Assembly (NCBI RefSeq): GCF_013167455.1
Contig: NZ_CP038328.1
Source of the DNA: Escherichia coli O157:H7
Lineage (GTDB): Bacteria > Pseudomonadota > Gammaproteobacteria > Enterobacterales > Enterobacteriaceae
Direction: 5' to 3' (one strand)
DNA: 64,000 nt
Shown: positions 21,001 through 24,000 of the stretch, piece after piece
How the letters are laid out: every line of letters begins with the position of its first letter
Position numbering within the stretch: position 1 is the first letter of the stretch
Program-made: the position numbers

Positions 21001-24000
21001 TTCACATTGGTAACAGGCAATTTGAGAATATTCTTTACTTCACCCGCGCCATAAAATACGCATCAACATATTCACCATTACGTAATGCGTACTTCTTGCC
21101 AGTCCCTTCAATCTCAAAGCCGAATTTTTTATAGACCTTAATTGCTGGCGCGTTATCGACGAACACCGTTAGCTCAATACGATCTACCCGCAACCAGTTG
21201 TCGCACATTTCAATCATCTCTCGCATCAGGGCGCTGGCGACGCCGCGATTCTTCCAGCGGGCGTCGACACAGATACCAAAATCGGCAACATGACTGCGGC
21301 GTGGGCGCTGTTGCACGTCAATGGTGAGATGGCCCACGACGTCTCCATCAATACAGGCGACGAGTTGCTTGATGCCGGGACGATCGGCGAGTCGCTCCTG
21401 CCACATATGATCGGAAGGATGAGGCACCTGTAGTGTGTTGTAATACACCTCCGGCTGGGCGTGAATCTGCCTGATGGCCTCGTAATCCCGTGTTTCAGCA
21501 TGGCGTATCACTATCTCACTCATTCCTTTGTCCTCTTTGGGGTAAATGTCCCTTTCAACATCATTGACTTTCGAATGCGAGTCAAATGCATTTTTTTGCA
21601 AAAAGTGTTGGACAAGTGCGAATGAGAATGATTATTATTGTCTCGCGATCAGGAAGACCCTCGCGGAGAACCTGAAAGCACGACATTGCTCACATTGCTT
21701 CCAGTATTACTTAGCCAGCCGGGTGCTGGCTTTTTTTTTGATCTTTCGTTCTCAATTTATCCTCGGGAAGTGCTTGTGTTCGTTATGCGCACTCCAGTAG
21801 GAACCACGTCCGCTTTGCGCTAAGGTGTAAATAACCACCTTAAAAAGGACGAAATCATGGTCATCAACTGCGCCTTTATTGGCTTCGGCAAAAGCACCAC
21901 CCGTTACCATCTGCCGTATGTACTTAACCGCAAGGATAGCTGGCATGTCGCGCATATTTTTCGCCGCCATGCAAAGCCGGAAGAACAAGCTCCCATTTAC
22001 TCTCATATCCATTTCACCAGCGATCTCAACGAAGTGCTAAACGATCCCGATGTTAAGCTGGTTGTTGTCTGCACCCATGCGGACAGCCACTTCGAGTACG
22101 CGAAGCGCGCGATGGAAGCCGGGAAAAATGTGCTGGTCGAAAAACCGTTCACTCCGACACTTGCGCAGGCGAAAGAGCTGTTTGCACTGGCGAAAAGCAA
22201 AGGGCTGACCGTCACGCCATATCAGAATCGTCGCTTTGATTCCTGCTTCCTGACGGCGAAAAAAGCGATTGAAAGCGGCAAGCTGGGAGAGATTGTCGAA
22301 GTGGAAAGCCATTTTGACTATTACCGCCCGGTGGCAGAAACCAAACCTGGGCTGCCGCAGGATGGCGCGTTCTATGGCCTTGGTGTGCATACGATGGACC
22401 AGATTATTTCTCTGTTCGGTCGCCCGGATCACGTCGCTTATGACATCCGCAGCCTGCGCAATAAAGCCAATCCTGACGATACTTTCGAAGCGCAACTGTT
22501 TTATGGCGATCTAAAAGCCATCGTCAAAACCAGCCATCTGGTGAAAATCGATTATCCGAAATTTATCGTTCACGGTAAGAAAGGTTCGTTTATTAAATAT
22601 GGTATCGACCAGCAGGAAACCAGCCTGAAGGCTAATATTATGCCGGGCGAACCGGGATTCGCAGCGGATGATTCGGTCGGTGTGCTGGAGTATGTCAATG
22701 ACGAGGGCGTGACGGTCAGAGAAGAGATGAAGCCGGAGATGGGCGATTACGGGCGCGTTTATGATGCGTTGTATCAAACCATCACCCACGGTGCGCCAAA
22801 TTACGTCAAGGAATCTGAAGTTCTTACGAATCTGGAAATACTTGAACGTGGATTCGAGCAAGCCTCTCCCTCCACAGTGACTCTCGCGAAGTAAGTTTGA
22901 TGGCCCCTCGAATAGTTCAATTTTTTTGAACAGAGGGGTCAATTTTCACCCTCTATCATCCCAGGCAGATCGGGTCCACACTAAGCCCATCGAAATCATT
23001 CAGGGGGCGAATACAAATGATCTACTTACGCAAAGCAAATGAACGTGGTCATGCAAATCATGGCTGGCTGGACTCCTGGCATACTTTCTCTTTTGCCAAC
23101 TATTACGATCCGAACTTTATGGGCTTCTCCGCGCTGCGCGTGATTAACGACGACGTGATTGAAGCAGGGCAGGGCTTCGGCACTCACCCGCATAAAGATA
23201 TGGAAATTTTGACCTACGTGCTGGAAGGTACTGTTGAGCACCAGGACAGCATGGGCAATAAAGAGCAGGTTCCGGCGGGCGAGTTCCAGATTATGAGTGC
23301 GGGTACGGGTATTCGTCACTCAGAGTACAACCCAAGCAGCACCGAGCGTCTGCACCTGTATCAGATCTGGATCATGCCGGAAGAAAACGGCATTACGCCG
23401 CGTTATGAACAGCGTCGCTTCGATGCAGTGCAGGGCAAACAACTGGTGCTTTCGCCAGATGCGCGTGATGGTTCATTGAAAGTGCATCAGGATATGGAAC
23501 TGTACCGCTGGGCGTTGCTGAAAGATGAGCAGTCGGTGCATCAGATTGCCGCTGAACGCCGCGTCTGGATCCAGGTGGTGAAAGGCAATGTCACCATTAA
23601 CGGCGTGAAAGCCTCGATCAGCGATGGTCTGGCAATCTGGGATGAGCAGGCAATCTCCATCCATGCGGATAGCGACAGCGAAGTGTTACTGTTCGATCTG
23701 CCGCCGGTTTAAAGCTCAACGGCATCTTTGAAGCCTGCCTTTTTGCAGGCTTCCTCGCTCGCTCCGGTCGCGTGCTGATGTACGCTTCCGGGGTTTTGCA
23801 GCGTCGTTAGCACAATGCGATGCAATTGATTTAGTGTATATCTAATAATTGTAAACAAGCACTGTTTTCCCCGGGAAGGTTCTGATGCGTCCGTGTTAAA
23901 CTAAGAGAATCTATCTCTTTTGTACCTTCAGGACGATGAAAAAGAAAAGACCCGTACTTCAGGATGTGGCTGACCGTGTAGGCGTGACCAAAATGACGGT

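What the first reader, a model, noticed from the sequence alone, without database searches (positions are those of the whole stretch)
21608..21735. RyhB small RNA with Fur-box promoter between two unrelated genes
The 90-nt RyhB sequence and its terminator are recognisable, preceded by an A/T-rich Fur-box-like promoter. It is a known regulator of iron-sparing and would be missed by protein-only annotation. It sits a few kb from the AT-rich islet and the gluconate genes.
Basis: partly seen in the sequence, partly recalled or inferred. Interest (0 to 1): 0.3.

Follow-up and report, generated by a model that had tools for sequence, protein, structure and literature searches.

The report
Known iron-stress small RNA RyhB
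This is the ordinary, well-studied E. coli small RNA gene ryhB, with its iron-sensing (Fur-repressed) promoter and terminator, base-for-base identical to the laboratory K-12 copy and in its usual place between yhhY and yhhX.

Summary
Window 21674-21738 (+) matches Rfam RyhB (RF00057) at 83.1 bits, against a gathering score of 55 (E 3.6e-14). The promoter and gene (21608-21739) are 100% identical to E. coli K-12, where ncRNA b4451 "small regulatory RNA RyhB" maps exactly onto window 21645-21739.

The anatomy is complete:
- A sigma-70 promoter, TGGACA-18-TATTAT, at 21609-21638.
- A Fur box, GAGAATGATTATTATTGTC, at 21624-21642, overlapping the -10. It is the single best Fur-consensus match in the whole 64-kb window and is identical to the site gel-shifted in K-12.
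- A 22-nt core at 21683-21704 shared exactly by every homologue retrieved. It overlaps a 9-nt stretch (21682-21690) complementary to the sodB start codon region.
- A 7-bp terminator hairpin followed by nine T (21713-21739).

The element is present in 5424 of 5426 complete E. coli genomes. In 116 homologous loci from other genera, 108 keep a Fur box upstream, and the terminator helix shows compensatory changes.

Nothing about this copy is unusual. Its only practical interest is that the RefSeq records sampled outside the curated K-12 record list no feature over it. Verdict: already known, low interest.

The parts
21609..21614 (+). -35 hexamer TGGACA of the ryhB promoter
   Evidence: Promoter scan. 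The 'ACA' of this block is invariant in 31 aligned loci.
21624..21642 (.). Fur box GAGAATGATTATTATTGTC, overlapping the -10 and ending 3 nt before +1. An overlapping 14/19 register lies at 21618-21636.
   Evidence: Best Fur-consensus match in the window, 16/19. Identical to the K-12 site, which is reported as 25.2 bits at -15 and gel-shifted (PMC2189734). This block is nearly invariant across genera.
21633..21638 (+). -10 hexamer TATTAT
   Evidence: It ends 7 nt before the K-12 annotated 5' end.
21645..21739 (+). ryhB gene, as the 95-nt K-12 annotation b4451. The 90-nt mature form is 21645-21734.
   Evidence: Coordinate transfer from NC_000913.3 3580922-3581016 (-) through alignment A1, 100% identical.
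21645..21664 (+). 5' stem-loop (GCGA...UCGC), the variable part of the RNA
   Evidence: MFE fold. This segment varies in sequence and length among homologues.
21674..21738 (+). Stretch matched by Rfam RF00057 (core plus terminator)
   Evidence: 83.1 bits, model positions 1-67/67.
21682..21690 (+). RyhB nt 38-46, GACAUUGCU, exactly complementary to AGCAAUGUC spanning the sodB start codon
   Evidence: The sodB translation-initiation region is present in 5425 of 5426 E. coli genomes and 100% identical in O157:H7 strains.
21683..21704 (+). 22-nt core ACATTGCTCACATTGCTTCCAG, shared exactly by all retrieved homologues
   Evidence: Used as an exact pattern, it found 120 or more stretches in Enterobacterales, Vibrionaceae and Aeromonas. 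Its invariance in the alignment is by construction, but the flanking bases G34, A36, C37, G38 and T61 are also 90% or more conserved.
21713..21739 (+). Rho-independent terminator and Hfq-binding module: a 7-bp stem (21713-21719 with 21725-21731), loop CGGGU, and nine T at 21731-21739
   Evidence: The helix is 95.8% paired in 100 homologues, with compensatory changes at 4 of 7 pairs. The U9 tail is described for RyhB in PMC4509938.
21035..21523 (-). Flanking gene yhhY (GNAT N-acetyltransferase), divergent from ryhB
   Evidence: A yhhY-like gene sits divergently upstream of ryhB homologues in 30 loci.
21857..22894 (+). Flanking gene yhhX (GFO/IDH/MocA oxidoreductase), 117 nt downstream on the same strand
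   Evidence: A yhhX-like gene lies directly downstream in 12 loci. The literature suggests read-through co-transcription.

Best explanation
This is the canonical E. coli ryhB gene, encoding a trans-acting, Hfq-dependent small RNA of about 90 nt that carries out the iron-sparing response.

Shown here by sequence:
- A sigma-70 promoter whose -10 is covered by a strong Fur box.
- A transcript with a variable 5' hairpin.
- A core that is highly conserved and predicted to be weakly paired, including 9 nt exactly complementary to the sodB start-codon region.
- An AU-rich stretch followed by a GC hairpin and a U9 tail.

Inferred from established work on the identical K-12 gene (Masse & Gottesman 2002; Masse, Escorcia & Gottesman 2003; Masse, Vanderpool & Gottesman 2005, cited from knowledge and via PMC2189734):
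- When iron is plentiful, Fe2+-Fur sits on the box and blocks RNA polymerase.
- When iron is scarce, Fur leaves and RyhB is made.
- Hfq binds the 3' U-tail and hairpin module and stabilises the RNA.
- The core pairs with the translation-initiation regions of mRNAs for non-essential iron-using proteins (sodB, sdhCDAB, acnA, fumA, ftnA, bfr and others). This blocks ribosome binding and triggers RNase E-dependent decay of both RNAs, which saves iron for essential enzymes. A few targets (shiA, cirA) are activated instead.
For: - Rfam RF00057: 83.1 bits against a gathering score of 55, full-length model match.
- 100% identity of promoter, gene and terminator to K-12, where the locus is annotated as ncRNA ryhB b4451.
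- The same synteny as K-12: yhhY divergent upstream, yhhX downstream.
- The only promoter-like and the only terminator-like sites in 21400-21950 bracket the RNA at the right distances.
- The Fur box is the best consensus match in 64 kb. The identical site is published as 25.2 bits at -15 and marked gel-shifted, and ryhB is stated there to be Fur-repressed (PMC2189734).
- Present in 5424 of 5426 complete E. coli genomes, at 99% identity or more in 5394.
- In 116 loci from other genera that carry the core, 108 have a Fur-box match of 14/19 or better within 130 nt upstream. That score is reached at only 8 of 127,964 positions in this window.
- The Fur/-10 block is nearly invariant in 31 aligned yhhY-ryhB intergenic regions, while neighbouring sequence drifts.
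- The terminator helix is 95.8% paired, with 38 double-change cells against 6.0 expected from shuffles, and pairing collapses when the partner is slid.
- 9-nt exact complementarity between RyhB nt 38-46 and the sodB AUG region, and that target site is conserved in 5425 of 5426 genomes.
- The U9 tail and hairpin fit the Hfq-binding module described for RyhB (PMC4509938).
Against: There is nothing substantive against it.

- The single-sequence MFE is not more stable than shuffles (z = -0.67). This is usual for short sRNAs with an open seed region, so it is not informative.
- Naive duplex energies do not single out sodB. Several unrelated translation-initiation regions in the window score as low or lower, so the pairing evidence rests on the exact 9-mer across the AUG and on published work, not on the energy.
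- Expression, Fur repression and Hfq dependence were not and cannot be measured here. They are inferred from sequence identity with K-12.
Confidence: 0.98

Rival explanations
1. The promoter also drives the downstream gene. Some transcripts started at the Fur-controlled ryhB promoter read through the terminator into yhhX, so the locus would work partly as an iron-regulated ryhB-yhhX operon, with RyhB as the terminated 5' product. This would be an added role, not a replacement.
For: - yhhX starts 117 nt after the T-run on the same strand, and no other promoter-like site was found between them.
- yhhX transcript rises on iron depletion, and the change disappears when ryhB and its promoter are deleted (PMC8896160).
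- yhhX was originally picked up in a selection for Fur sites in vivo (PMC2189734).
Against: - Termination at ryhB is reported to be enhanced under the inducing stress, which works against read-through exactly when the promoter is on.
- The ryhB-yhhX adjacency is found in only 12 of the homologous loci, all of them the nearest matches (yhhX-like product 75-98% identical), whereas ryhB itself is far more widespread. The linkage is therefore not needed for RyhB function.
- The simple consensus scan can miss a weak yhhX promoter.
Confidence: 0.3
2. The match is a degenerate or silent relic, or a chance resemblance, and not a working gene.
For: None found.
Against: - Full-length Rfam match 28 bits above the cutoff.
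- No substitution relative to K-12 in promoter, Fur box, gene or terminator.
- Kept at 99% identity or more in 5394 of 5426 genomes.
Confidence: 0.01
3. The region encodes a small protein, either as a dual-function RNA or as an unannotated short ORF, rather than acting only as an RNA.
For: Mechanical ORFs overlap the region, for example 21638-21823 (+, 61 aa, TTG start) and 21586-21675 (+, 29 aa).
Against: - The 90-nt transcript contains no ATG (read directly from the sequence).
- The listed ORFs start upstream of +1 or run through the terminator.
- The 5' part of the RNA varies by indels among homologues, while the conserved part is the pairing core. This is the pattern of an RNA gene, not of a coding sequence.
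Confidence: 0.01

Closest known systems
E. coli K-12 RyhB (ryhB, b4451; also called SraI), Rfam RF00057
   Same: Everything tested is the same: 100% identical promoter, Fur box, 95-nt gene and terminator, and the same yhhY / yhhX flanks.
   Different: Only the wider neighbourhood differs. Beyond yhhY, K-12 has yhhZ-yrhA-IS1E, whereas this window has an AT-rich islet with a DUF4225 gene. There are three differences in the 331-nt intergenic region, all outside the promoter and RNA.
RyhB paralogue pairs of other Enterobacterales (RyhB-1 / RyhB-2 = IsrE in Salmonella, RyhB1/2 in Yersinia; names from knowledge)
   Same: The same 22-nt core, a Fur box upstream, and a GC hairpin with U-tail terminator.
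   Different: Many of those genomes carry two loci with the core (for example Yersinia, Photorhabdus, Enterobacter, Pantoea and Serratia), with different 5' domains. E. coli has one copy (median 1 place per genome).
Vibrio / Aeromonas RyhB
   Same: The core is identical, and a Fur box is present upstream in most loci.
   Different: The RNA is longer. The Fur box lies 75-130 nt upstream of the core and the T-run 75-112 nt downstream in many Vibrio loci, against 59 and 48 nt here.
PrrF1/PrrF2 of Pseudomonas and IsrR of Staphylococcus (functional analogues)
   Same: These are Fur-repressed small RNAs that carry out an iron-sparing response. This is from knowledge; IsrR is described in PMC9410917, listed.
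   Different: They are generally described as functional analogues without sequence or structural homology to RF00057 (from knowledge; not tested here). They resemble RyhB in how they work, not by family membership.

Membership tests
RyhB (Rfam RF00057) | Scores at or above the family's curated gathering threshold against the covariance model | tested here: met
   83.1 bits against 55, E 3.6e-14, model positions 1-67/67, not truncated.
RyhB (Rfam RF00057) | Conserved target-pairing core (GCACGACAUUGCUCACAUUGCUUCCAGU) | tested here: met
   Present at 21678-21705, identical to K-12. The 22-nt core occurs exactly in 120 or more loci of other genera.
RyhB (Rfam RF00057) | Fur box overlapping the promoter (Fur-repressed transcription) | tested here: met
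   In sequence: 16/19 at 21624-21642, overlapping the -10, and the best match in the window. It is conserved upstream of 108 of 116 homologues. The identical K-12 site is listed as gel-shifted (PMC2189734). Actual repression in this strain was not measured.
RyhB (Rfam RF00057) | Rho-independent terminator with a U-tail of 7 or more, preceded by a U/A-rich stretch (Hfq-binding module) | tested here: met
   7-bp stem, 5-nt loop and nine T. The helix is supported by covariation. AGUAUUACUU precedes the hairpin. RyhB's U9 tail is described in PMC4509938.
RyhB (Rfam RF00057) | Complementarity to the canonical target sodB at its translation start | tested here: met
   RyhB nt 38-46 GACAUUGCU pairs with sodB AGCAAUGUC (-4 to +5) as an exact 9-mer. 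The target site is conserved in 5425 of 5426 genomes.
RyhB (Rfam RF00057) | Orthologous genomic position (yhhY-ryhB-yhhX) in Escherichia | tested here: met
   yhhY-like gene divergent upstream in 30 loci, yhhX-like gene downstream in 12 loci.
RyhB (Rfam RF00057) | Iron-starvation-induced, Hfq-dependent accumulation and RNase E-coupled target decay | not testable with these tools
   Inferred from identity with the experimentally characterised K-12 gene. It needs Northern blots or RNA-seq in wild type, fur and hfq backgrounds.

The most novel reading that the evidence does not exclude
The Fur-controlled ryhB promoter region may be a small conserved bidirectional control module, not just the promoter of an isolated sRNA. 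Read-through of the ryhB terminator would make the oxidoreductase gene yhhX iron-regulated. The divergent GNAT gene yhhY keeps a nearly fixed distance from ryhB across Escherichia, Citrobacter, Enterobacter, Klebsiella, Yersinia, Serratia, Pantoea, Erwinia and Rahnella. Its candidate -35 would be the invariant GTCAA block at 21582-21586 (TTGAC on the minus strand). yhhY might therefore also be linked to iron status. The evidence here shows only conserved adjacency and a published hint for yhhX. It shows no regulation of yhhY.
Probability: 0.2. Interest if true: 0.2.

Novelty: already known. Interest (0 to 1): 0.05.

Why it matters
It matters only as an annotation point. RyhB is the central post-transcriptional regulator of iron sparing in E. 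coli, and it affects metabolism, oxidative-stress handling and siderophore production. Yet the RefSeq records sampled here outside the curated K-12 record list no feature at this locus. Flagging it correctly in this O157:H7-like window is useful housekeeping. It teaches nothing new about biology.

Tried and rejected
- **Single-sequence folding.** The MFE of -24.1 kcal/mol is no better than shuffles (z = -0.67). This is not informative for a short sRNA, so structural support came from the Rfam model and from covariation.
- **Duplex energies against sodB and 51 gene starts in the window.** duplexfold ignores intramolecular structure and gave long, non-specific duplexes. ftsX, the dprA-like gene, ataR and livF scored lower than sodB, so the energies were discarded as evidence. 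No gene start in the window has 8 nt or more of exact complementarity to the core (best is 7 nt, in the DUF4225 gene), so there is no sign of a neighbouring cis target.
- **Other RNA families nearby.** A permissive Rfam scan of 19000-24000 found nothing but RyhB.
- **Small ORF or dual-function reading.** Rejected: there is no ATG in the transcript, and the 5' domain is rich in indels among homologues.
- **Covariation in the core stem-loop.** This could not be assessed, because the homologues were retrieved with an exact 22-nt core pattern and that part is invariant by construction.
- **Not pursued.** The two E. coli genomes without a match and the few with 2-3 places were not examined.

Full report
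**Observation.** The stretch 21608-21735 was read and the whole 64-kb window was scanned against Rfam 15 at gathering thresholds. RF00057 (RyhB) matches 21674-21738 on the + strand over the full model (1-67/67), at 83.1 bits against a gathering score of 55, with E 3.6e-14. A permissive scan of 19000-24000 found no other family with E<=1.

**Identity and coordinates.**
- A 551-nt query around the site hits 5424 of 5426 complete E. coli genomes and is 100% identical to O157:H7 and other strains. The window's gene order, ftsE through nfuA, coincides with O157:H7 strain PA20.
- In K-12 MG1655 the curated record carries ncRNA ryhB (b4451) at 3580922-3581016 (-), between yhhX and yhhY.
- Aligning the two yhhY-yhhX intergenic regions gives 99% identity. 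All three differences lie outside the promoter and RNA, and every column from the -35 to the end of the T-run is identical.
- Transferring the K-12 feature gives window 21645-21739 for the 95-nt annotation and 21645-21734 for the 90-nt form.

**Anatomy.**
- In 21400-21950 the consensus scan finds exactly one promoter-like site, TGGACA-18-TATTAT at 21609-21638 (10/12).
- It also finds exactly one terminator-like site, AGCCAGC-CGGGT-GCTGGCT at 21713-21731 followed by T's (nine T in all, 21731-21739). Both are on the + strand and correctly spaced around the RNA.
- I scored the 19-bp Fur consensus GATAATGATAATCATTATC and its reverse complement at all 127,964 positions and strands of the window. 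GAGAATGATTATTATTGTC at 21624-21642 is the single best site (16/19, and 15/19 in the other orientation). An overlapping register at 21618-21636 scores 14/19. Only 8 positions in the window reach 14 or more, and 3 of those 8 are this site or that overlapping register.
- The box covers the -10 and ends 3 nt before +1, which is the geometry expected for repression by occlusion.
- The literature agrees. Chen et al. (PMC2189734) list a 25.2-bit Fur site at -15 of ryhB with overlapping weaker sites, mark it as gel-shifted, and state that ryhB lies between yhhX and yhhY and is repressed by Fur.

**Evidence from elsewhere.**
- A 138-nt query covering only promoter and gene is present in 5424 of 5426 E. 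coli genomes, at 99% identity or more in 5394. No feature is annotated under the match in any of the 30 records sampled across the ranking.
They come from Enterobacterales (Escherichia albertii, Citrobacter, Enterobacter, Klebsiella, Yersinia, Serratia, Pantoea, Erwinia, Photorhabdus, Xenorhabdus, Providencia, Morganella, Dickeya and others), Vibrionaceae and Aeromonas, often with two loci per genome.
- Of 116 loci with enough flank, 108 have a Fur-box match of 14/19 or better within 130 nt upstream of the core.
- An alignment of 100 distinct homologues shows a variable, indel-rich 5' domain, the constant core, and a GC hairpin with a T-run.
- For the terminator helix, 95.8% of cells form a standard pair, and 4 of 7 pairs show changes on both sides (for example A-U to C-G or G-C at the middle pair in 23 sequences). 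There are 38 double-change cells against 6.0 +/- 2.1 in shuffles, and pairing falls to 23-55% when the 3' partner is slid.
- In 31 aligned yhhY-ryhB intergenic regions the block ACAAGTGCGAATGAtAATGATTATTATTG (promoter and Fur box) is nearly invariant, while the sequence on either side drifts.

**Mechanism.**
- Shown by sequence:
  - a Fur-occluded sigma-70 promoter;
  - a 90-nt RNA with no ATG;
  - a pairing core;
  - an Hfq-type 3' module.
- RyhB nt 38-46 (GACAUUGCU, window 21682-21690) is exactly complementary to AGCAAUGUC at -4 to +5 of sodB. That target region is present in 5425 of 5426 genomes and is 100% identical in O157:H7 strains.
- The following comes from established work on the identical K-12 gene. 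It is cited from knowledge (Masse & Gottesman 2002; Masse et al. 2003, 2005) and is consistent with PMC2189734 and PMC4509938:
  - Iron limitation releases Fur and RyhB accumulates.
  - Hfq binds the U-tail and hairpin.
  - The core pairs with the initiation regions of mRNAs for dispensable iron proteins.
  - Translation is blocked and RNase E degrades both the sRNA and the mRNA.
- Expression, Fur binding and Hfq dependence in this particular strain are inferred, not measured.

**Things that did not help.**
- The single-sequence fold is no more stable than shuffles (z = -0.67).
- Naive duplex energies do not discriminate sodB from unrelated gene starts in the window. No gene start in the window has 8 nt or more of exact complementarity to the core.

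**Surroundings.**
- yhhY (21035-21523, -) is a GNAT acetyltransferase and yhhX (21857-22894, +) is a GFO/IDH/MocA oxidoreductase.
- A tblastn survey of the oriented homologous loci finds a yhhY-like gene divergently upstream in 30 loci, across many genera, at a nearly constant 157-186 nt from the core. A yhhX-like gene lies directly downstream in only 12, all with a 75-98% identical product. The yhhY linkage is therefore more widely conserved than the yhhX one.
- Two papers suggest that yhhX is transcribed from the ryhB promoter by read-through. Read-through is about 20% in normal growth and is described as not shown experimentally (PMC4509938). The iron-dependent rise of yhhX is lost when ryhB and its promoter are deleted (PMC8896160).
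- This is the only mildly open question at the locus, and it has already been raised in print.

**Comparison and verdict.** Every sequence-testable defining feature of RyhB is met: the model score, the core, the Fur box, the terminator and Hfq module, sodB complementarity and synteny. This is the known gene, in its known place, with no sequence peculiarity. Novelty: already known. Interest: low (0.05). Its value is limited to correct annotation of a feature that the automated RefSeq records sampled here omit.

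Noticed in passing
window 45323-45365 (+): This is the second Rfam hit: ES036 (CssrF) sRNA at 39.3 bits, just above its gathering score of 37.6. It sits in the spacer between two inverted REP-like palindromes (GCCTGATGCGGCG...CGCCTTATCAGGCCTAC / GTAGGCCTGATAAGCGTAGCGCATCAGGC), downstream of glpD's 3' end. It looks like part of a REP/BIME-type repeat rather than an independent sRNA gene.
   Followed up: partly
window 19200-21030: An AT-rich islet (GC 0.31-0.35 against about 0.5 in the flanks) lies between ggt and yhhY. It carries one 303-aa DUF4225 gene (19913-20824, -). K-12 has yhhZ-yrhA-IS1E at the corresponding position. It is probably horizontally acquired. Its function is unknown.
   Followed up: partly
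window 21582-21586: An invariant GTCAA block (TTGAC on the minus strand) sits about 25 nt upstream of the ryhB -35 in 31 aligned yhhY-ryhB intergenic regions from many genera. It is a candidate -35 of the divergent yhhY promoter. The yhhY-ryhB divergent arrangement is conserved in 30 loci with near-constant spacing.
   Followed up: partly
window 27081-30407: Between gntU and yhgN there is an islet, not examined further, with a frameshifted RecQ-family helicase pseudogene and a gene annotated 'DNA-processing protein DprA' in the O157:H7 PA20 record.
   Followed up: no
window 42107-45235: Three genes lie between glgP and glpD: two annotated as PstS-family phosphate-binding proteins and a 200-aa hypothetical protein with no Pfam match. 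Not examined further.
   Followed up: no
window 4267-5067 and 53197-53951: There are two GNAT-toxin type II toxin-antitoxin pairs: ataR-ataT between livJ and panM, and a DUF1778 antitoxin with a GNAT acetyltransferase next to malT.
   Followed up: no
RefSeq records matching window 21605-21742: In all 30 records sampled across the ranking, no feature is annotated under the ryhB promoter and gene. The PA20 record jumps from locus tag AU473_RS04550 (yhhY) to AU473_RS04560 (yhhX) with nothing listed between them. Only the curated K-12 record lists the ncRNA.
   Followed up: partly
loci L005-L124: Many non-Escherichia genomes (Yersinia, Photorhabdus, Xenorhabdus, Enterobacter, Pantoea, Serratia, Erwinia, Rahnella and others) carry two separate loci with the exact RyhB core, and Salinivibrio sharmensis has two copies 306 nt apart in tandem (L041). 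In Enterobacter-like genomes the second copy has a distinct 5' domain and a distinct Fur box (GATAAAGATTATCTTTCTC).
   Followed up: partly
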